Virus record (IMG/VR): IMGVR_UViG_3300042337_000191 | Source: an uncultured virus (IMG/VR IMGVR_UViG_3300042337_000191) | Taxonomy: Duplodnaviria; Heunggongvirae; Uroviricota; Caudoviricetes | DNA: 64,000 nucleotides | Strand: one strand, 5' to 3' | Part shown: in pieces, positions 5,609-59,386 of the stretch | How positions within the stretch are numbered: position 1 is the stretch's first letter | Layout: each line of letters starts with the position of its first letter | Position numbers and translations under genes: made by a program | The notes under the pieces: model-generated | What the model saw: only the letters and a program-made list of their open reading frames with translations | What the model was told of the DNA's origin: nothing | Database searches by the model: none

Positions 5609-6130
5609 TTAAAATTCATCTGGAGGCAATGTTGCCTCTGTTTTTAGTTTTCTTTTATTTATTGGTAGTTTAGATTTAAGTGTTAAATTTTCTTGATGTA
5701 ACTTATTTAATTCAGAAGTCTGACGACGATATTCTTCTGCTAAATCTTCCAATCTTTTGATATCATCGAAATGTTTATCTTTGTAATCGTTATATTCTTG
5801 TGTTATTTTTATTCTTTCTTCTTTACAATCATGCAAAGATCTTTTTAAATCTTCTATAGTTTTTGTATGTTCTATCTTTTCTTGTTCAAATATTTTTTTA
5901 TCAATAGTAAGAGATTCTACGCCTTTGGCCGCTTGTTGCATCATTTCATTTTGAATCTCAACTTGTTTTTGAGATTCTTCATATTTTGATGAAAGATTTT
6001 TAACTGAAGCTGATAGTGCAGTAACTCTAATTTCTAGATCTATGTTTTTACGCAGAAAATCCAGAAGCATATTTTCTTGCTTCTGGATAAACTGTTTTAA
6101 ATAAATGTCTTGACCTTCATCATTTTCCAT
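5609..6130 (-). CDS. Coiled-coil hypothetical protein
   Basis: 173 aa E/K/Q-rich ORF with heptad character, within the late operon. Confidence 0.6.
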   Translation of the reverse strand: MENDEGQDIYLKQFIQKQENMLLDFLRKNIDLEIRVTALSASVKNLSSKYEESQKQVEIQNEMMQQAAKGVESLTIDKKIFEQEKIEHTKTIEDLKRSLHDCKEERIKITQEYNDYKDKHFDDIKRLEDLAEEYRRQTSELNKLHQENLTLKSKLPINKRKLKTEATLPPDEF

Positions 6131-6160
6131 AGTATAATTCCTTTGTCAACGAAAAATATA

Positions 6161-6907
6161 TCACTTCTTAATTCTTCCTCTGACGTAACCTTCCGGAATA
6201 GCTTCTTGTTTGTTAATTCTGGTGTTTGCTCTACCATTATTAATCCAAATAAGATTCGAAACAGCGCTACGGATTCTTTGTTTATCTTCTTCTGTTTTAT
6301 TAACTCCTTTTTTCGGAGTTTTCTTCCATCTTTGTTTTAGAGAATTAATTCTTTTTTCAATTTGTTCTTCAGATTGTTTTTTACCTACTTTTATATTTAT
6401 TTGAGTTTGTCTATATGTTGGATCTGTCCACAATTCTAAAGATTTTTGTCTTCTCATTTCTATTTGATCATTATCCTCAAATTGCTTTTTATTAGCTTCT
6501 CTCAATTTTTGTTTGGTTTCTTCTGACCTTGTTTTGCCAATAGACCAATGACCCCAATTTTCGTGTTTCTTATGAGATAGTGATATCTTTTCGCCTACTG
6601 TTAATATTTTTTCTCCATCTGTTGTCCAATGACCATTAAGATGGTTTATTAAATTATAATATTTTTTCCCTAACTCTTCATCTTTTATAAAAGAAAGATA
6701 CTTATATTCTTCTATCAATAACTGTTTTCTATCAAAAACCTTTTTAATAATCCTACGTTTAAAATCATGAGGTCTTCTTTTATAAGCGTCTCTCATCCAG
6801 TTCGAAGAACATTTATAACCATCAGTTTCGGTTCCCCAATGAGATCCAATATAATATCTTTTATGTTTTTTATCAAACCAAATATATACAAATCCATACT
6901 TTTCCAA
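6161..6907 (-). CDS. Free-standing GIY-YIG (Seg-like) homing endonuclease with NUMOD3-type DNA-binding repeats
   Basis: GFVYIW...YYIGSH N-terminal motif; GKTRSEETKQKLREA and GKKQSEEQIEKR repeats. Start placed at TTG 6907, 7 nt after AGGAG (track uses ATG 6934). Confidence 0.8.
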   Translation of the reverse strand: MEKYGFVYIWFDKKHKRYYIGSHWGTETDGYKCSSNWMRDAYKRRPHDFKRRIIKKVFDRKQLLIEEYKYLSFIKDEELGKKYYNLINHLNGHWTTDGEKILTVGEKISLSHKKHENWGHWSIGKTRSEETKQKLREANKKQFEDNDQIEMRRQKSLELWTDPTYRQTQINIKVGKKQSEEQIEKRINSLKQRWKKTPKKGVNKTEEDKQRIRSAVSNLIWINNGRANTRINKQEAIPEGYVRGRIKK

Positions 6908-19900: not shown

Positions 19901-20184
19901 ATTTTACCAACAAAATATGATGATTCTAGATCTTGGGTTAATGAAACTACCTTTACGGTATCAATGTAATGTTCATAATCAAAAGAACCATCTAATACTA
20001 TAGAGCCGTTTTTAAATATATGTTGACCAAATCTATCAATTTGTTTCTGCAGAATAGTCTGCATTTGATTGAGTTCACGTGCCTGGATAGCTGTAGAAGG
20101 TCTGAATAGGACTTTATAATAATTTTTAGCTTCATCATAATCGTCAAAATAAGGGTTGACGTTAAAATTAGTGTTTATTGGCAT
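13924..20184 (-). CDS. VrlC-like / DUF4815-type large baseplate-associated protein (2086 aa)
   Basis: N-terminus NFNVNPYFDDYD..KNYYKVLFRP...QARELNQMQ; RTYDESGDY; DRFKNGFFVD; C-terminal DLRVIAL. Confidence 0.8.
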   Translation of the reverse strand: MPINTNFNVNPYFDDYDEAKNYYKVLFRPSTAIQARELNQMQTILQKQIDRFGQHIFKNGSIVLDGSFDYEHYIDTVKVVSLTQDLESSYFVGKIVTGSVSGVEAYVKHVDYDFDNNVYVFFVRYTKSGTDTNFFLTDEIVTDNSNPNNFFKTVEEDCNSVGTIFSISQGVMFSKGFFAAFPAQTVALSFYTTTPSVIAGFKVVESIITDLQDPSLLDNALGSPNENAPGAHRFAVDPTLTVVDYDAEITDPDFSILVVIKNGIIEQSKERTEYARIYDEFAKRTYDESGDYYVSGFNARVREHLNVNSNEGLFSLAEGGDSQKLTIDIDPGVAYVKGYEVNKLVTQHIITDKGIEYESENGETINARTSGYYLVKEAIGTLSLDTGTLVNLYNTAEQRITNKTTLSTANTGALIGTARVKYFAYDSGSQGSANGSYRLYLYDTQLTNGNIANVRSVGISSTFFADIQLNSNSTPIFNDYNLNTLLYKVNTNYTRSLRGNNGISDTIFNFSRTETKTTNFATGGILTLSLSGSDQEELSYSTGSLSSTEKRTILLTVNANKDIHLFSPSGVVSGTSGQGNLTGTSTYFSRLNAGDRIKVNGSYYFVNTVYSDTSMSIVGTLSSSPVSNVIYRSYMAGDIVDLTIKGSSGVTRNVSLSSSGVMTVDLKEDTSNTTGSVSCSITYNITRSGAQEVKKILSPRRYVMINTATNVANTVGPYNLGLPDVYRVRSVRIKTGAFVNNTDGDDVTSYFALDDGQRDCFYDHASLIFKGGIDIKNKYLLVQLDHFEADYTGGAGYFSVDSYPVDDTTVSESTIFTYQIPVYATSYGEMFELRNAMDFRPYKTATAASTQATSTGNISAATVNPATTTSMYVPTGGLRTSIPGSNMYIDYSYYLARRDLIAVDTNGNFILYKGKPDINPISPIAPDNVMPLVKALIKPYPSLSETYARQLGNQTYGCTAKNIANRRYTMKDIGTIKNRVDNLDYYNALTLLEKTATDLNITDAATGLDRFKNGFFVDGFVDHSLGDTRNDDYRCSIDPKENCIRPFHEADSVKYQYQSTGSSGVQLTGSLVTRPYTETVLLSQKNISTRRNIEYSVYRFVGRMTFRPETDIWHDQKTVDKKITYGDDLPNPILLSTEWTSWEKYGVGKPVYNVYSTNEGGYGNSWNGGKSLEGSFSSYKEALDFAKPVKTNTLPANYYAYNAGGGYNPRTPYYLANGQLVTGYFGWSTNPDIAVQMGSGNLGSNTPDNFMRSFAIEGTDPGTTERRSKVEKSLDWGTETQTLGSFVTDVTLATYIRPQTITIIVQGLKARTRYWVYFDSENMTSYCSQWVASNLFGAKPDSYKTEGAELITNDGGDLVFDLRLPTTGKRFKVGTKEVIVTDSPTNAVDATSHARGYWTSLGINAQKQNTIVSTVVPTIETNSTPEERFIPGKGQTLEIWACSCMAYSFKVDVPPTEDGIFLTSVDIFIESMHPTLGVWFEIREMNAGGVTKNQVPYSEVWMKRTDPRIKLNPVGTTNFQATKVNFPAPVYLMNNTSYAFVIHTEGLNPDTYFWVSRLGETDVLTNSQITSRRLTGTLYTTNNNTNYDMVPDVDLTCTFNRANFAVGSGTAMLGNIPVEYIKLKSGAGAFTNYGEEIVGSAKLALTSIVSTGNTIVIGDILTGSSSGAVGNVTAVGAGSLYSTTGIGFSNTETVTVKNSSGTLKNISATVNGVYSGSGKLKSYDSANNIFIIEDSNGLYLANGVVKGVRSANVGVIDSFTYYPYSTTCLKPHYLTFRNTSCGFEKRGWRSDTNAYGNYYPGIPDVSSDFYEENKILSRVNEISLNSSNPSSQARATLTTSSVYVSPVIDLSRGNSVYVHNLINADDPDVLILDNIDQGANTIIIGDKIVGTVNGYVTSIIGNTVITDVNGYANAEIITVYESTGTTSKGISANVISVSRSEDQISGGSLINRYISKVITLAEGQDAEDLIVKITAYRPVGTDVKVWFKVANAEDYQGLSNKKWTPMVYFDSIYSSSVNNRDFLEFDYSVNPDNYDGNGILQYTSEGNTFKGFKQFQIKIGLYGNADGISSALVPKVGDLRVIALQR

Positions 20185-42926: not shown

Positions 42927-43126
42927 GATAGATATCCTAGGATAGAACCAACAGGGCCAACAAAAACACCAATACAGCGAAGAATAAACTTAGCGGTTAC
43001 AGGATTGTCCATTGTATTCCAGATAGCAATAATGTTCATCACCCATCCAACAAAAAAGACAAGCCATATTACAGTTAGAGTAATGTAATATGCTAGGCCA
43101 TGATCTTCTTCACGATAATTTGCCAT
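42923..43126 (-). CDS. Small membrane protein
   Basis: Two hydrophobic segments; GWVMNI...R.IGVFV.P.G.ILGY. Confidence 0.6.
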   Translation of the reverse strand: MANYREEDHGLAYYITLTVIWLVFFVGWVMNIIAIWNTMDNPVTAKFILRCIGVFVGPVGSILGYLS

Positions 43127-43141
43127 AATATATTCTCCAGA

Positions 43142-43252
43142 TTAGCGACCTGACTGTTTACGCCAAATCCATGATGAAAGGTTTAGAAGCGTTTGATGAA
43201 ATTTGTCTACCAAAGAACTGTTCCAGAACCAATGAAGCTTACGGTTTGACAT
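43142..43252 (-). CDS. Small hypothetical protein (36 aa)
   Basis: MSNRKLHWFWNSSLVDKFHQTLLNLSSWIWRKQSGR preceded by GGAGA. Confidence 0.45.
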   Translation of the reverse strand: MSNRKLHWFWNSSLVDKFHQTLLNLSSWIWRKQSGR

Positions 43253-43271
43253 TTTGTTCTCCGTTAAGAAA

Positions 43272-43348
43272 TGGCGATCCCGGCACGATTCGAACGTGCG
43301 ACCCACAGATTAGAAGTCTGTTGCTCTATCCAGCTGAGCTACGGGACC
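43272..43348 (-). tRNA. tRNA-Arg(UCU)
   Basis: GGTCCCGTAGCTCAGCTGGATAGAGCAACAGACTTCTAATCTGTGGGTCGCACGTTCGAATCGTGCCGGGATCGCCA; folds as a cloverleaf, anticodon TCT, encoded CCA. Confidence 0.95.
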
Positions 43349-43357
43349 ATTGTTAGT

Positions 43358-43386
43358 ATTATACGCTGATCCGAATGGAAAAGCAA
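43358..43386 (-). promoter_or_regulatory. Sigma70-like promoter for the tRNA
   Basis: TTGCTT-17 nt-TATAAT. Confidence 0.7.
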
Positions 43387-43391
43387 GTTGT

Positions 43392-43601
43392 TTATACAAA
43401 CATTCCAAAAATGCCAGAAAGAACAAAGAACGTAATTGCAGAAGCCAATGTGATCTCAATTACGCCTGTCGCCCAATAACCCAGAATAGCTCCCAGAAAT
43501 AGACCTGCAACGGCGCAGATATAGACATTAGTACTGAGAGCAAAGTTGAACTCACGCATACCCGTATATTTGTCTTTGTTACTCATAATATATCCTTTCA
43601 A
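43392..43601 (-). CDS. Small membrane protein
   Basis: Two predicted transmembrane segments. Confidence 0.5.
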   Translation of the reverse strand: MKGYIMSNKDKYTGMREFNFALSTNVYICAVAGLFLGAILGYWATGVIEITLASAITFFVLSGIFGMFV

Positions 43602-43604
43602 AAT

Positions 43605-43763
43605 GAAAATGCGACTGTTCTGTTTCTAGGTCAGTCGCCAACCCAATGAGGATTAAGCTGCTAGAGCGTAACCTTCAAATGATGCATCATTATCGTTTGC
43701 ATCTACGTTTCGCCTTTGGTCTCCTCGAAGCCTTAATGTAGATAATCGAGCCTATACACCCCC
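43605..43763 (-). ncRNA. ssrA: Two-piece tmRNA, coding piece
   Basis: Begins GGGGGTG at 43763; tag frame 43700-43653 = ANDNDASFEGYALAA*; 3' hairpin GCGACTG...CAGTCGC. The 3' end is approximate. Confidence 0.88.
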
Positions 43764-43764
43764 A

Positions 43765-44229
43765 TCATAAACTGACATATGGATTCGTTTTTTTCATAAC
43801 AGATTTTAATCTACCACGAACCCAATCTTTAGGATAATCCTCTAAAGAGAACTGTCCTTCGGAAACGCCATCATTGAACCAATATCTCTTGTTTCTAATT
43901 TTTCTGCCATCTGTTCCTTTTTCATAAGGAGAAGGAACGCCTGATCTTATCCATTTACCAGTGGCAGATTTCTTACCATTTCCCCATCTAATAGCATTGG
44001 TTATTGCAGCGCCTTTTTTTGCTCCTTCACGAATTGCTATAAAAGTGCATTCGTCAGAAGTAAGAAGACCTAACAAACCTTTCCAAGCCAATAAATCTTG
44101 CCAGTGACCATGTGTTTCATATAAAACTCTATGGGCTTCGGCATGTTCTTCAATAGTAAGTTCTATCAAGTTATTTGGTTCATCTGTTCCGCCTAAATGT
44201 TTGGGAACAATATGATGTATGTGTTTCAT
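43765..44229 (-). CDS. HNH homing endonuclease inside the tmRNA intervening segment
   Basis: HHIVPKHLGGTDEPNNLIELTIEEHAEAH HNH motif; C-terminal W.NDG...W.RGR motif. Confidence 0.85.
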   Translation of the reverse strand: MKHIHHIVPKHLGGTDEPNNLIELTIEEHAEAHRVLYETHGHWQDLLAWKGLLGLLTSDECTFIAIREGAKKGAAITNAIRWGNGKKSATGKWIRSGVPSPYEKGTDGRKIRNKRYWFNDGVSEGQFSLEDYPKDWVRGRLKSVMKKTNPYVSL

Positions 44230-44236
44230 TTAATCC

Positions 44237-44270
44237 TCCTGTCAATCATACTTATTTATAATAGACAGGA
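44237..44270 (-). promoter_or_regulatory. Late promoter TATAAATA in the loop of an RBS-sequestering hairpin
   Basis: TCCTGTC/GACAGGA stem overlaps AGGAGG of the HNH gene; TATAAATA at 44253-44260. Confidence 0.75.
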
Positions 44271-44283
44271 TTTTATCAGTTTA

Positions 44284-44352
44284 TGGTGGAGGTGAGGGGA
44301 TTCGCACCCCTGTCTTACCAACCTATATGCTAAGTCTCAACGACCTCGGCAA
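44284..44352 (-). ncRNA. ssrA: Two-piece tmRNA, acceptor piece
   Basis: ...GACAGGGGTGCGAATCCCCTCACCTCCACCA: T-arm plus CACCTCC-A-CCA, which pairs with GGGGGTG to give the G3.U70 alanine identity pair. The 5' end is approximate. Confidence 0.85.
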
Positions 44353-44414
44353 ACTTTATTTATTCTTTTGGAATTTCGTTTTCAAATTCTTCAATTAGGG
44401 GATGTGGTGGTTCT

Positions 44415-44537
44415 TTAGTGGCACGGTCTGTTAGAACTGTCCCGTACAATGCACTTACCGACGGTCGCCAACTCAGCGCAGCCAGCAACACCCAGACTAA
44501 GACACACCATTGCTATTGCTATATAAACCTTTTTCAT
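44415..44537 (-). CDS. Small lipoprotein (40 aa)
   Basis: MKKVYIAIAMVCLSLGVAGC signal peptide with lipobox. Confidence 0.55.
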   Translation of the reverse strand: MKKVYIAIAMVCLSLGVAGCAELATVGKCIVRDSSNRPCH

Positions 44538-44784
44538 TCTTATCCTCCGGATTATAATCGTGCTTTTCAGTTTCATGAAGAGCAACAGAAAACCATTCAG
44601 TAGAACCTTCACGTTGATACTGAAGATCCTGCATTGGAACCATTACCATTTCCTTAGTCTGAGGATGAACCATCATCTTAGGAAACATTACCATACGAAA
44701 ATCTACAATCGGCTTTTTCTTATCAACGCCTCCCGTTGGGAGACTGCTAGCAGCAATTGCACCATCTGGTCCAAGAATACTCAT
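44497..44784 (-). CDS. Hypothetical protein
   Basis: 95-aa ORF in operon. Confidence 0.55.
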   Translation of the reverse strand: MSILGPDGAIAASSLPTGGVDKKKPIVDFRMVMFPKMMVHPQTKEMVMVPMQDLQYQREGSTEWFSVALHETEKHDYNPEDKNEKGLYSNSNGVS

Positions 44785-45134
44785 GTCTTTTGTCCTTTTA
44801 CCTTTTCAAGCAACTGACCTAGATATTCAATCGCTTTATCATTAAATGTAACGTCGTCTAAAACACCAACAACGCAATATTGCTTTGCTGCCATTGCATT
44901 TCCATCCGAAGACTTATCGTATTCAATGATAAACAGATGCCGATCTTTGGACATCATAACTTCATTCATCTTATCATTCTTTATACCATTATAAAGAGTA
45001 ACAAGAGCTTTATCATCAATCATCTTCATAAATTCTTTATTTTCATAACACTTCAATTCTGACTCTGCTGATAAAGCAGAGCCAGTTAACATTGAAGAGA
45101 TAATCACACCATACATGATATTCTTCATCATCAC
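44781..45134 (-). CDS. Putative exported protein
   Basis: Signal-peptide-like N-terminus; paired Cys. Confidence 0.55.
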   Translation of the reverse strand: MMMKNIMYGVIISSMLTGSALSAESELKCYENKEFMKMIDDKALVTLYNGIKNDKMNEVMMSKDRHLFIIEYDKSSDGNAMAAKQYCVVGVLDDVTFNDKAIEYLGQLLEKVKGQKT

Positions 45135-58738: not shown

Positions 58739-59386
58739 TCACTCCGGAATTTTAGGATCTTTAATAGGCGGAAATGGTTTGGCTTTCCCAGTTTTGTTAG
58801 GAACAAAATTAAACCATCCTGTAAGAATATACTTCTCTTGCGTTGGAGATACTACACCACGATGGAAATGAGTCCAGTCGACTGGCCATATCATGGTCAA
58901 TCCCTTCTCTGGGCGTAGATTAATACGTTGATGATAGAATTGCGTTCCGCCTCGATCAGTAACGTCATTAAGATATGTCATAAACGCCAGATGACGAGAT
59001 ACTCCTGGCTCAACACAACTTAGACGTTCGGAATGCCAAATTTTAAATCCGCCACCCGGAGGATAATATTGAATATTTGGTGGGCTAAGAACATCTACAT
59101 CATCACCATACGCTGACAAAGGATATACCTTTTGATACTCATTCATTATGTCATGCAAATGAGCATAATACTCTTTTAGAATTGTATCGTCGCTTAAATG
59201 ACAATCAACGGAGTCTTTAATTGATTTGTTAACAACTCTCTGGCCAAACTCGTTATGAATAATTCCAGCACTCTTATCTGAGTTATTATTAAACCATTCA
59301 ATAACTCTATCGCAGAAACTGGTGTCTTTCATATACCATCCCAGGATGAAATTACCTGGGATTGGATTTAGTATATGTGATTTCAT
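58739..59386 (-). CDS. 2OG-Fe(II) oxygenase
   Basis: IQYY.PGGGF..WHSE; YLNDV..GGT.F; WP..WTH.HRG; KYI.TGW. Confidence 0.9.
   Translation of the reverse strand: MKSHILNPIPGNFILGWYMKDTSFCDRVIEWFNNNSDKSAGIIHNEFGQRVVNKSIKDSVDCHLSDDTILKEYYAHLHDIMNEYQKVYPLSAYGDDVDVLSPPNIQYYPPGGGFKIWHSERLSCVEPGVSRHLAFMTYLNDVTDRGGTQFYHQRINLRPEKGLTMIWPVDWTHFHRGVVSPTQEKYILTGWFNFVPNKTGKAKPFPPIKDPKIPE

What the first reader, a model, noticed from the sequence alone, without database searches (positions are those of the whole stretch)
43605..44352. HNH endonuclease gene nested in the excised spacer of a permuted two-piece tmRNA
Seen: on the - strand the order is acceptor piece (T-arm, CACCTCC-A-CCA, ending 44284), then a ~520-nt spacer, then the coding piece starting GGGGGTG (43763) with tag ANDNDASFEGYALAA. 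The spacer holds an intact 154-aa HNH ORF with its own TATAAATA late promoter; its stop codon lies 1 nt before the predicted mature 5' G. Established: alphaproteobacterial tmRNA genes are circularly permuted and a short intervening segment is removed by tRNA-type processing. Inference: the endonuclease uses this spacer as an intron-like safe haven that host processing removes without splicing, and may home into HNH-less tmRNA alleles. I do not know of a described case.
Basis: partly seen in the sequence, partly recalled or inferred. Interest (0 to 1): 0.88.

Follow-up and report, generated by a model that had tools for sequence, protein, structure and literature searches.

The report
Nuclease gene inside split phage tmRNA
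A lake phage carries its ribosome-rescue RNA (tmRNA) as a two-piece gene, and the stretch between the pieces that is normally thrown away holds an intact, selfish-looking HNH nuclease gene belonging to a family that sits in or beside tmRNA genes in many uncultured phages.

Summary
Rfam's permuted-tmRNA model (RF04321) matches 43653-44345(-) above its cut-off, with about 480 unmatched bases in the loop between the CCA end (44284) and the 5' G (43763). A 154-aa HNH ORF (43765-44229) fills that spacer, and its stop codon ends 1 nt before the 5' G.

- **Empty alleles:** in 80 related phage records, 67 carry the same gene unsplit (196-411 nt). Only 4 near-identical records are split by the HNH gene.
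- **Gene absent elsewhere:** two long relatives (82% and 98% complete) have no copy anywhere.
- **Family association:** of 80 metagenome loci with HNH relatives, 31 have a tmRNA gene within 900 nt, and 12 of these lie between the two pieces.
- **Decay:** one relative keeps only the last 32 codons.
- **tmRNA looks intact:** HNH-bearing alleles keep intact tags and the helix that closes the spacer.
- **Regulation:** most leaders fold into a hairpin with a late-promoter motif in the loop and the ribosome site in its arm, as for T4 homing endonucleases.

Best reading: a homing-endonuclease lineage specialised on phage tmRNA genes, using the discarded spacer as a ribozyme-free intron equivalent. 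RNA ends, cleavage and homing are untested.

I found no paper describing it. This scan noted the same arrangement on other genomes (e1-5789481, e1-5927549, e1-5684334, e1-6093233).

The parts
44284..44345 (-). tmRNA acceptor piece: 3' strands of P2, T-arm, 3' acceptor strand CACCTCC, discriminator A and an encoded CCA ending at 44284
   Evidence: RF04321 alignment, model positions 1-62; own nhmmer acceptor-piece profile E 1.1e-13; sequence
44357..44364 (-). AATAAATA, a late-promoter-like motif 12 nt upstream of the acceptor piece; possible promoter of the tmRNA precursor (inferred only)
   Evidence: Read. Relatives have TATAAATA or CTAAATA at the corresponding place. No sigma-70-like site on this strand
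43764..44283 (-). Intervening spacer of 520 nt, predicted to be discarded on maturation; relatives have 23-242 nt
44276..44283 (-). 5' strand (TAAACTGA) of the helix that closes the spacer
   Evidence: Pairs with 43768-43775. The register is conserved in 44 distinct alleles: 90.2% of cells paired, against 32-65% in other registers and 63.8% (max 69.2%) with partners shuffled
44237..44270 (-). Leader hairpin of the HNH gene: TATAAATA (44253-44260) in its inner stem and loop, Shine-Dalgarno AGGAGG (44235-44240) in and next to its 3' arm
   Evidence: strand folding: -15.1 kcal/mol, z -2.81, 1 of 200 shuffles as good. The same design occurs in 19 of 26 distinct leaders of family members. It is the only strongly folded site among the 6 TATAAATA sites in the window
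43765..44229 (-). HNH endonuclease gene, 154 aa, starting MKHIHH; its last three sense codons and TGA stop lie in the 3' strand of the spacer helix
43768..43775 (-). 3' strand (TCAGTTTA) of the spacer-closing helix, which also encodes the final residues V-S-L of the HNH protein
43653..43763 (-). tmRNA coding piece: 5' acceptor strand GGGGGTG, 5' strands of P2, resume codon GCA at 43698-43700, tag ANDNDASFEGYALAA, stop TAA at 43653-43655
   Evidence: RF04321 model positions 87-213; ARAGORN tag call; nhmmer coding-piece profile E 2.4e-19
43600..43639 (-). GC-rich hairpin followed by a T-rich run; likely the 3' end of the coding piece or a terminator (inferred)
   Evidence: Read. Partly aligned by the alpha_tmRNA model. 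Not picked up by the simple terminator scan
43272..43348 (-). tRNA-Arg(TCT) gene downstream on the same strand; a neighbour, not part of the element
   Evidence: ARAGORN; Rfam tRNA 66.6 bits

Best explanation
The locus is a functional-looking, circularly permuted (two-piece) tmRNA gene of an uncultured freshwater T4-like phage. A free-standing-type HNH homing endonuclease gene has colonised its intervening spacer.

How I think it works:
1. The gene is transcribed as one precursor: acceptor piece, spacer, coding piece.
2. The two pieces pair, and the ends of the spacer form a helix that extends the acceptor stem.
3. tRNA-type processing cuts 5' of G43763 and trims to the CCA at 44284. The spacer, with the nuclease gene in its loop, is discarded, so the insertion costs the tmRNA nothing and no ribozyme is needed.
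4. In the precursor a hairpin hides the nuclease gene's ribosome-binding site. A late-type promoter in the hairpin loop would start a shorter transcript that cannot form the hairpin and can be translated.
5. The protein is proposed to cut tmRNA genes of co-infecting relatives that lack it, near the conserved acceptor piece, and to be copied in by repair.

Shown here: the anatomy, the empty alleles, the family's association with tmRNA genes, a decayed copy, and retention of tmRNA features.
Inferred: RNA processing, promoter use, nuclease activity, the target site and homing.
For: 1. tmRNA identity. RF04321 scores 52.8 bits against a cut-off of 47. ARAGORN calls a permuted tmRNA with a proper tag once the spacer is shortened, in 5 of 5 trials.

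2. Presence/absence polymorphism at one site.
- Of 80 related records, 67 have an unsplit full-length permuted tmRNA of 196-411 nt.
- One has a partial match above the cut-off at a contig end.
- Four, all near-identical to the window, are split.
- Two have only an acceptor piece at a contig end.
- Six have no match.
- G004 (82% complete) and G027 (98% complete) have no homologue of the protein anywhere.
- An RNA-library contig in run X19 has the 82-nt acceptor piece with 0 differences, then diverges 2 nt after the CCA into a sequence like the short spacers of HNH-less relatives.

3. Family-level association with tmRNA genes.
- Viral contigs: L129, L130, L131 and L132 (43-66% identical proteins) lie between the two pieces. 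L128 (70%) lies 27 nt upstream of an unsplit tmRNA.
- 80 metagenome loci: 12 enclosed by both pieces; 4 with one piece in the expected place; 15 beside a tmRNA gene, one of them a one-piece tmRNA; 49 with none within 900 nt.

4. Decay. L120 has a 113-nt spacer made of the first 16 spacer bases plus the last 32 codons of an HNH gene. Six codons differ synonymously and three non-synonymously from the window. The peptide equals the C-terminus of P0003, whose intact gene sits in L234.

5. The tmRNA stays intact. Twelve of 14 HNH-bearing loci give ARAGORN permuted calls with ...LAA or ...KAA tags after shortening. The spacer helix is 89.8% paired in 12 HNH-bearing alleles and 90.3% in 32 empty ones.

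6. HEG-type regulation. The leader hairpin has the late-promoter motif in its loop and the ribosome site in its arm, and 19 of 26 leaders share this. The T4 review describes this scheme for I-TevI, I-TevII, I-TevIII, segB and mobE (PMC2988022, passages read).

7. Nuclease core.
- All 31 aligned members start at MKHxHH or close to it. N20, H29 and H33 are invariant, and H5 and H6 are conserved in at least 90%.
- The profile hits the HNH domain of a group II intron maturase at E 5.2e-05.
- The AF2 model has mean pLDDT 80.6, with 89-95 over residues 1-70.
- It superposes locally on colicin, pyocin and Cas8-HNH cores over 34-39 residues at rmsd 0.9-1.3 A.
Against: - No RNA evidence. The runs laid were contigs only, and the RNA libraries gave no cover over the HNH gene. 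Neither processing nor transcription is shown.
- The window protein scores just below Pfam's HNH cut-off (21.0 against 21.4 bits). It lacks the N-terminal part and the Cys pairs found in many HNH domains. Foldseek gives no match at E <= 0.001. Activity is therefore not assured.
- No co-conversion tract is visible against relatives that are only 70-87% identical in DNA.
- For 9 of 12 HNH-bearing tmRNAs the most similar tmRNA is an empty one. With 35 empty against 12 filled alleles this is close to the chance expectation.
- L154 and L158 lack the hairpin and promoter, so that control is not universal.
- The motif upstream of the tmRNA is also late-type. Timing alone therefore may not separate the two transcripts.
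Confidence: 0.72

Rival explanations
1. The nuclease is a domesticated phage gene with a job of its own, for example processing the phage's pre-tmRNA, degrading host or competitor DNA, or excluding related phages. It is kept next to the tmRNA gene for co-expression and not because it is mobile.
For: - The association with tmRNA genes is tight and old: proteins down to 43% identity are still in the spacer.
- The ORF is intact, with invariant catalytic residues in 31 of 31 aligned members.
- The stop codon sits within 1 nt of the predicted processing site in the window and in L129, which could hint at coupling with processing.
Against: - Most relatives do without it: 67 of 80 records carry unsplit tmRNA genes, and two long genomes have no copy at all.
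- A decayed remnant exists.
- The gene takes three different positions relative to the tmRNA gene: inside the spacer, upstream on the same strand, and divergent.
- Its leader follows the design described for T4 homing endonucleases.
Confidence: 0.15
2. The insertion has inactivated the tmRNA gene. The two pieces are relics, and only the nuclease gene matters.
For: - The Rfam score of 52.8 bits is lower than in relatives (81.5-131.2 bits for unsplit full-length matches).
- ARAGORN does not call the intact locus.
- No RNA data are available.
Against: - The lower score and the ARAGORN miss follow from spacer length alone: ARAGORN calls the gene in 5 of 5 shortenings.
- The G3:U pair, T-arm, CCA, P2 pairing and a complete tag frame are all present.
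- Twelve of 14 diverged HNH-bearing loci keep callable tmRNAs with proper tags.
- The spacer helix is as well paired as in empty alleles. That would not be expected without selection.
Confidence: 0.06
3. The ORF in the spacer is a chance reading frame or an assembly chimera.
For: None beyond the just-sub-threshold Pfam score.
Against: - 335 homologues at E <= 0.001, about 60 clusters of them full-length.
- A strong ribosome-binding site.
- The same arrangement in several independent contigs and in 18 DNA runs.
- A contig in run X1 spans 43678-44699 with 0 differences.
Confidence: 0.01

Closest known systems
Two-piece (circularly permuted) tmRNA genes of aquatic T4-like phages such as OM43 phage Melnitz and pelagimyophages (PMC9004378, passages read); Rfam RF04321 (PMC11915505, passages read)
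   Same: Gene order is acceptor piece, intervening sequence, coding piece. Tags are alphaproteobacterial-style ANDN...LAA. The setting is a T4-like aquatic phage, with tRNA genes (including tRNA-Arg TCT) nearby.
   Different: The spacers described there are short. The Melnitz text has 0 occurrences of 'homing', 'HNH' or 'intervening'. Here the spacer is 520 nt and holds a protein-coding gene. ARAGORN, the tool used in that survey, misses such loci.
Group I introns in the T-loop of tmRNA genes, some carrying LAGLIDADG homing endonuclease genes (36 of 883; PMC11915505, passages read)
   Same: A homing-type endonuclease gene sits inside a tmRNA gene, in a segment absent from the mature RNA.
   Different: There is no ribozyme here: Rfam finds no intron family in 43000-45000 at E <= 10. 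Removal would rely on the end-processing that every permuted tmRNA needs anyway. The enzyme is HNH, not LAGLIDADG. The position is between the CCA end and the 5' end, not in the T-loop.
Free-standing homing endonucleases of T4 and the hairpin plus late-promoter control of I-TevI, I-TevII, I-TevIII, segB and mobE (PMC2988022, passages read)
   Same: - The phage lineage is T4-like.
- The ribosome site is hidden in a hairpin and a late promoter is placed so that late transcripts cannot form it.
- SegB sits among T4 tRNA genes and targets that region.
- The 3' end of the I-TevI ORF extends into structured intron RNA, just as this ORF's last codons form one strand of the spacer helix.
- The outside-the-gene members of this family look like 'intronless homing'.
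   Different: The niche is a processed spacer inside a single RNA gene, neither an intron nor an intergenic gap. Target, cleavage and mobility are untested for this family. The protein shares only the roughly 40-residue HNH core with known enzymes.
Other cargo in intervening sequences of permuted tmRNA genes: a tRNA-Ala gene in one ('unique feature') and a repetitive element in the longest, 1152 bp (PMC11915505, passages read)
   Same: These show that the intervening sequence tolerates large insertions.
   Different: Neither is a protein-coding selfish gene. That paper's main text has 0 occurrences of 'HNH', and its only endonuclease genes are in introns. Its supplementary tables were not examined.

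Membership tests
Permuted two-piece tmRNA (Rfam RF04321) | Covariance-model score at or above the curated gathering score | tested here: met
   52.8 bits against 47, model positions 1-213, E 1.8e-07
Permuted two-piece tmRNA (Rfam RF04321) | tRNA-like domain split across the pieces: T-arm, 7-bp acceptor stem with G3:U, discriminator and CCA on the upstream piece, 5' strand on the downstream piece | tested here: met
   Read; aligned; ARAGORN 3' and 5' tRNA domains found after spacer shortening
Permuted two-piece tmRNA (Rfam RF04321) | Tag reading frame with an alanine resume codon, a hydrophobic ...LAA end and a stop | tested here: met
   GCA resume codon, tag ANDNDASFEGYALAA, TAA stop
Permuted two-piece tmRNA (Rfam RF04321) | The precursor is processed into two RNAs held together by pairing | not testable with these tools
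   Only contigs of public runs could be laid; no ends can be read
HNH (beta-beta-alpha-metal) endonuclease, Pfam PF01844 | Pfam gathering score | tested here: inconclusive
   The window protein scores 21.0 bits against a cut-off of 21.4. 27 of 31 family members match at E <= 0.01. PHROG 655 'homing endonuclease' E 6.8e-14
HNH (beta-beta-alpha-metal) endonuclease, Pfam PF01844 | Catalytic His, structural Asn and metal-binding His conserved | tested here: met
   H5 and H6 conserved in at least 90%; N20, H29 and H33 invariant in 31 sequences. Aligned to the HNH motifs of a group II intron maturase and Cas8-HNH
HNH (beta-beta-alpha-metal) endonuclease, Pfam PF01844 | beta-beta-alpha-metal fold | tested here: inconclusive
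   The AF2 model has strands at residues 2-6 and 21-25 and a helix at 26-40, with pLDDT 89-95. Local superposition covers 34-39 residues at rmsd 0.9-1.3 A on colicin E9/E7, pyocin and Cas8-HNH, but no Foldseek match reaches E <= 0.001
HNH (beta-beta-alpha-metal) endonuclease, Pfam PF01844 | Nuclease activity | not testable with these tools
   Needs an enzyme assay
Homing endonuclease gene (mobile selfish element) | Present or absent at the same site among related genomes | tested here: met
   67 of 80 related records have unsplit tmRNA genes; 4 are split. G004 and G027 have no homologue
Homing endonuclease gene (mobile selfish element) | Occupies a site where it does not destroy the host gene | tested here: met
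   It sits in the loop of the spacer-closing helix. tmRNA features and tags are retained in 12 of 14 HNH-bearing loci, and the helix is 89.8% paired. Function itself is inferred
Homing endonuclease gene (mobile selfish element) | Degenerate copies (the gain, decay and loss cycle) | tested here: met
   L120 keeps only the last 32 codons, and an intact counterpart sits in L234
Homing endonuclease gene (mobile selfish element) | Site-specific cleavage of the empty allele and preferential inheritance in crosses | not testable with these tools
   Needs experiments
Group I intron with a homing endonuclease in a tmRNA gene | A self-splicing ribozyme surrounds the ORF | tested here: not met
   No intron family among Rfam matches at E <= 10 in 43000-45000. 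The ORF fills the spacer from 55 nt after the CCA to 1 nt before the 5' G

The most novel reading that the evidence does not exclude
The nuclease gene's expression may be wired into tmRNA maturation itself. The predicted 5' processing cut falls 1 nt after the stop codon in the window and in L129. It falls inside the ORF in L132 and L130, where the ORF runs 9 and 37 nt into the coding piece.

Processed precursors would therefore yield a nuclease message with its stop codon at the very 3' end, or with no stop codon at all. A stop-less message is exactly the substrate that tmRNA tags for destruction. The rescue RNA would then police the selfish gene lodged inside its own gene, and only transcripts from the internal late promoter that escape processing would give stable protein.

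More broadly, the clade would be the first homing-endonuclease lineage whose 'intron' is an RNA-processing spacer instead of a ribozyme or an intein.
Probability: 0.12. Interest if true: 0.85.

Novelty: new variant of a known kind. Interest (0 to 1): 0.62.

Why it matters
**A third kind of niche for homing endonuclease genes.** They are known to survive in genomes by hiding in self-splicing introns or inteins, or by sitting between genes. A discarded spacer of a circularly permuted RNA gene would be another way to sit inside an essential-type gene at no cost. It borrows the cell's tRNA-processing enzymes in place of a ribozyme.

**A blind spot in annotation.** ARAGORN misses these loci, and no full-length homologue is present in 50,697 deposited phage records. 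Counts of phage tmRNAs are therefore likely too low.

**A possible enzyme resource.** The family has about 60 full-length clusters and a compact nuclease of about 150 aa. If it is active, its specificity for a highly conserved RNA-gene sequence could be of practical interest.

**A population-genetics opportunity.** The same lake populations hold filled, empty and decayed alleles. The gain-and-loss cycle of a selfish gene could be followed in time-series metagenomes.

Tried and rejected
- **ARAGORN on the intact window and locus:** no tmRNA. This is explained by spacer length and is not evidence against the gene.
- **Megablast against deposited phages:** only a 48-nt tRNA match.
- **tblastn of the protein against deposited phages:** 20 records, none covering 80% or more of the query, all matching only the N-terminal core. 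Two cyanophage hits (S-SKS1, RB11-B) have no tmRNA within 1.5 kb by annotation or Rfam.
- **Co-conversion tract around the insertion:** blastn against L004, L007, L012, L016, L024 and L120 gave 68-93% identity pieces with no step near the tmRNA. The relatives are too distant to tell.
- **RNA evidence:** two RNA libraries held only small shares. All laid runs were contigs. There was no cover of 43347-44239 in the RNA runs and no ends. This says nothing about expression.
- **Joint skipping the HNH gene:** none was seen in DNA runs X1 and X15.
- **Global fold match:** none at E <= 0.001.
- **PHROGs on small ORFs:** no family for the 68-aa ORF in the L030 spacer or for two small neighbours of the tmRNA.
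- **Nearest-neighbour test of tmRNA similarity:** with 35 empty against 12 filled alleles it is too weak to prove repeated gain.
- The count was made from the stored files instead.
- **Literature:** searches found no paper that places an HNH or other endonuclease gene in the intervening sequence of a permuted tmRNA. Supplementary tables of PMC11915505 and PMC9004378 were not read and could list such loci.
Full report
**What is there.**
- The window is part of an uncultured T4-like phage. PHROG matches include baseplate wedge subunits, a tail protein and the gp32-type single-strand DNA-binding protein. G+C is about 33-45%.
- On the minus strand, Rfam's tmRNA_permuted model (RF04321) matches 43653-44345 at 52.8 bits. 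The gathering score is 47 and E is 1.8e-07 for the whole window. All 213 model positions are covered, and about 480 unmatched bases fall in the loop between the two pieces.
- The upstream piece carries the T-arm, the 3' acceptor strand, a discriminator A and an encoded CCA ending at 44284.
- The downstream piece starts GGGGGTG at 43763. This gives a 7-bp acceptor stem with a G3:U pair. It goes on to a GCA resume codon and the tag ANDNDASFEGYALAA with a TAA stop.
- ARAGORN finds nothing in the intact locus. It calls a 'Permuted' tmRNA with this tag in 5 of 5 trials in which a script removed the middle of the spacer.
- The 520-nt spacer holds one ORF, 43765-44229, of 154 aa. AGGAGG lies 7 nt upstream and an in-frame stop lies directly before the ATG.
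- The ORF's TGA ends at 43765, one base before the 5' G. TATAAATA lies at 44253-44260.

**The protein.**
- It matches PHROG 655 'homing endonuclease' at E 6.8e-14, but only over profile positions 49-99 of 343.
- It matches Pfam HNH at 21.0 bits, just under the 21.4 cut-off.
- A search of 5.8 billion proteins gave 335 homologues at E <= 0.001. About 60 clusters are full-length at 42-92% identity. All are unnamed or 'hypothetical'.
- In an alignment of 31 members, nearly all start at MKHxHH, so the short N-terminus is real. N20, H29 and H33 are invariant, and H5 and H6 are conserved in at least 90%. Most members end ...RGRLKSVMKKTNPxVxL.
- 27 of the 31 members match Pfam HNH at E <= 0.01.
- A profile of the family hits the HNH domain of a group II intron maturase (E 5.2e-05) and Cas8-HNH fusions.
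- The AlphaFold model has mean pLDDT 80.6, with 89-95 over residues 1-70. It shows two strands and a helix at the N-terminus.
- These superpose locally on colicin, pyocin and Cas8-HNH cores over 34-39 residues at rmsd 0.9-1.3 A. No global match reaches E <= 0.001.
- The protein is therefore a minimal HNH core joined to a family-specific C-terminal half. Activity is plausible but unproven.

**Empty alleles.**
- I fetched 79 loci encoding relatives of the neighbouring 380-aa protein and one more locus by pattern. I then ran RF04321 over the 80 records.
- 67 records have an unsplit, full-length match of 196-411 nt (39 of 50, 28 of 30).
- One has a partial match above the cut-off at a contig end.
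- Four records (G002, G003, G022, G051), all 100% identical to the window in the tested genes, give two separate sub-threshold hits about 500 nt apart. This is the HNH-bearing form.
- Two show only an acceptor piece at a contig end, and six show nothing.
- ARAGORN calls permuted tmRNAs in 57 of the 79 loci, with spacers of 23-150 nt and one of 242 nt.
- The closest backbone relatives (L004-L006, 87% identity in the 380-aa protein) have a 93-nt spacer.
- G004 (82% complete) and G027 (98% complete) have no homologue of the HNH protein anywhere. The same phage as the window, G001, has exactly one copy.
- An RNA-library contig in run X19 carries the 82-nt acceptor piece with 0 differences. Two bases after the CCA it diverges into sequence of the short-spacer type. 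This hints at a very close HNH-less allele.

**Spacer anatomy.**
- In all relatives the first bases after the CCA pair with the bases that end four positions before the 5' G.
- The count covered 44 distinct alleles and nine pairs. In that register 90.2% of cells form standard pairs. Other registers give 32-65%, and dealing the partners anew among sequences gives 63.8% (sd 1.7, max 69.2). Each position shows 3-5 pair types.
- The 12 HNH-bearing alleles are paired as well as the 32 empty ones (89.8% against 90.3%).
- TGAT precedes the 5' G in 35 of 44 alleles.
- In the window the helix is TAAACTGA (44276-44283) with TCAGTTTA (43768-43775).
- The HNH gene therefore sits in the loop of a conserved helix. 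Its last three codons are one strand of that helix, and the stop codon it uses is native spacer sequence.

**The family is tied to tmRNA genes.**
- Viral contigs:
  - The full-length homologues in L129, L130, L131 and L132 (43-66% identity) also lie between an acceptor piece and a coding piece.
  - In L129 the stop again ends 1 nt before the 5' G. In L132 and L130 the ORF runs 9 and 37 nt into the coding piece.
  - In L128 (70% identity) the gene ends 27 nt upstream of an unsplit tmRNA.
- The one metagenome scan returned 80 loci. Using my own nhmmer profiles and Rfam on 66 of them:
  - 12 are enclosed by both pieces (L152-L155, L163, L164, L166, L167, L169, L173, L176, L185).
  - 4 have one piece in the expected place at a contig end or with the other piece undetected (L156, L157, L158, L165).
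  - 15 lie beside a tmRNA gene but outside it.
  - 49 have no tmRNA within the 900-nt flanks. Most of these share only the N-terminal core.
- The 15 outside loci break down as follows:

| Position relative to the tmRNA gene | Loci |
|---|---|
| Upstream, same strand | L159, L160, L202 |
| Upstream of a one-piece tmRNA | L188 |
| Divergent, 19-109 nt from the acceptor piece | L161, L162, L168, L172, L177, L182, L190, L215, L228 |
| Further away | L183, L186 |

- The tmRNAs involved score as alpha-type, beta-type or standard in Rfam.
- In every arrangement the gene borders the acceptor piece. For that reason I place the likely target there. This is inference.
- After spacer shortening, ARAGORN calls permuted tmRNAs with complete tags in 12 of 14 HNH-bearing loci. 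Of the two it missed, L130 passes RF04321 at 75.2 bits, and L163 has nhmmer hits to both pieces.

**Decay.**
- L120 has an unsplit tmRNA (84.1 bits). Its acceptor piece is 92.6% identical to the window's.
- Its 113-nt spacer is the same first 16 bases followed directly by the last 32 codons of an HNH gene.
- Against the window, six codons differ synonymously and three non-synonymously. The sequence therefore evolved as coding DNA before the deletion.
- The peptide equals the C-terminus of P0003. An intact P0003-type gene stands in the same place in L234.
- This pairs an occupied allele with its deletion derivative, as expected for the gain, decay and loss cycle of a selfish gene.

**Expression signals.**
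- The leader folds into a hairpin at 44237-44270 (-15.1 kcal/mol, z -2.81, 1 of 200 dinucleotide shuffles as good). TATAAATA lies in the inner stem and loop, and AGGAGG lies in and next to the 3' arm.
- Among 26 distinct leaders of family members, 19 fold into a hairpin that encloses a TAAATA motif. Their z-scores are -2.6 to -7.9 against 200 mononucleotide shuffles each. The stem sequences differ between lineages.
- Seven leaders do not fold this way. They include L154 and L158, where the ORF starts 10-12 nt after the CCA.
- Of the six TATAAATA sites in the window, only this one has a strong hairpin (z -5.3). Three others stand just upstream of ORF starts at 20184, 8814 and 42000, which fits use of the motif as a late promoter.
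- The T4 review PMC2988022 (passages read) describes the same scheme for I-TevI, I-TevII, I-TevIII, segB and mobE:
  - The ribosome site is hidden in longer transcripts, and a late promoter is placed so that late transcripts cannot form the hairpin.
  - The suggested reason is to keep ribosomes out of structured RNA.
  - The I-TevI ORF's 3' end also contributes to intron structure, a close parallel to the helix strand encoded here.
- A late-type motif (AATAAATA, 44357-44364) also precedes the acceptor piece. The hairpin may therefore serve more to shield the precursor from ribosomes than to time expression. This is inference.

**What is not shown.**
- No RNA ends and no transcription. The public runs were available only as contigs, and the RNA libraries did not cover the HNH gene.
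- No cleavage and no homing.
- No co-conversion tract is visible, because the nearest empty relatives are only 70-87% identical.
- For 9 of 12 HNH-bearing tmRNAs the nearest tmRNA is an empty one. With 35 empty and 12 filled alleles in the set, this is weak support for repeated gain.

**Comparison with what is known.**
- Two-piece tmRNA genes in aquatic T4-like phages are described for Melnitz and pelagimyophages (PMC9004378, passages read).
- The 2025 tmRNA database paper that produced RF04321 (PMC11915505, passages read) reports three related things:
  - LAGLIDADG endonuclease genes inside group I introns of tmRNA genes (36 of 883).
  - One tRNA-Ala gene inside an intervening sequence.
  - A repeat element inside the longest permuted gene.
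- Neither text mentions an HNH or any endonuclease gene in an intervening sequence.
- Four searches found no paper that does. Supplementary tables were not read.
- Deposited phage genomes hold no full-length homologue.
- This scan's own earlier notes describe the same arrangement on other genomes: e1-5789481, e1-5927549, e1-5684334 and e1-6093233. These are AI notes, and I saw them only after my own analysis of the spacer and the family. They agree with it and are not independent evidence.

**Verdict.**
- It is a new variant of a known kind: a homing-type endonuclease gene whose safe site is the processed spacer of a permuted RNA gene. It belongs to a sizeable, unannotated family specialised on phage tmRNA genes.
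- Interest is moderate to high for people who work on selfish elements, tmRNA or phage genomics. It would rise if cleavage and processing are shown.

Noticed in passing
L030:5998-6239 (spacer of an HNH-less relative): A 242-nt spacer with about 155 extra bases directly after the CCA. These carry a ribosome-binding site and a 68-aa ORF (6011-6217) with no PHROG match. The ORF runs into the native spacer helix. It is a second, unrelated kind of cargo in the same niche.
   Followed up: partly
L080 spacer (150 nt; ARAGORN call at 2474-2934): The spacer contains a small ORF that looks hydrophobic, starts about 14 nt after the CCA and runs to the 5' end of the coding piece. I read it by eye and did not search with it.
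   Followed up: no
L188:901-1725: A relative of the HNH gene (residues 1-101 matched) lies about 215 nt upstream of a standard one-piece tmRNA (RF00023, 89.3 bits). The family's link to tmRNA genes is therefore not limited to permuted genes.
   Followed up: partly
L128:2440-2500: A direct repeat of about 16 nt, containing the hairpin arm and a CCTAAA motif, stands just upstream of the free-standing HNH gene. It could be a footprint of how the cassette moved.
   Followed up: no
L154 and L158, leaders of the HNH ORF: In these two HNH-in-spacer alleles the ORF starts only 10-12 nt after the CCA, with no hairpin and no late-promoter motif. Expression would depend wholly on the tmRNA precursor transcript.
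   Followed up: partly
window 43676-43722 and 44475-44700, in runs X1 and X15: Summed contig depth over the tag region and over the upstream genes is 10-25 times that over the HNH gene (about 344 against 14 in X1). Related, mostly HNH-less phages therefore share the same lakes with this one. This is a depth of contigs, not a measured allele frequency.
   Followed up: no
window 43272-43348 (-): A tRNA-Arg(TCT) gene lies directly downstream of the tmRNA. A 48-nt stretch of it is 89.6% identical to a tRNA-Arg of a crAss-like gut phage record, most likely plain tRNA conservation.
   Followed up: no
window 58739-59386 (-): A 215-aa ORF matches PHROG 61, a 2OG-Fe(II) oxygenase classed as an auxiliary metabolic gene (E 2.6e-37). 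A similar-looking gene end lies just upstream of the tmRNA in L120.
   Followed up: no
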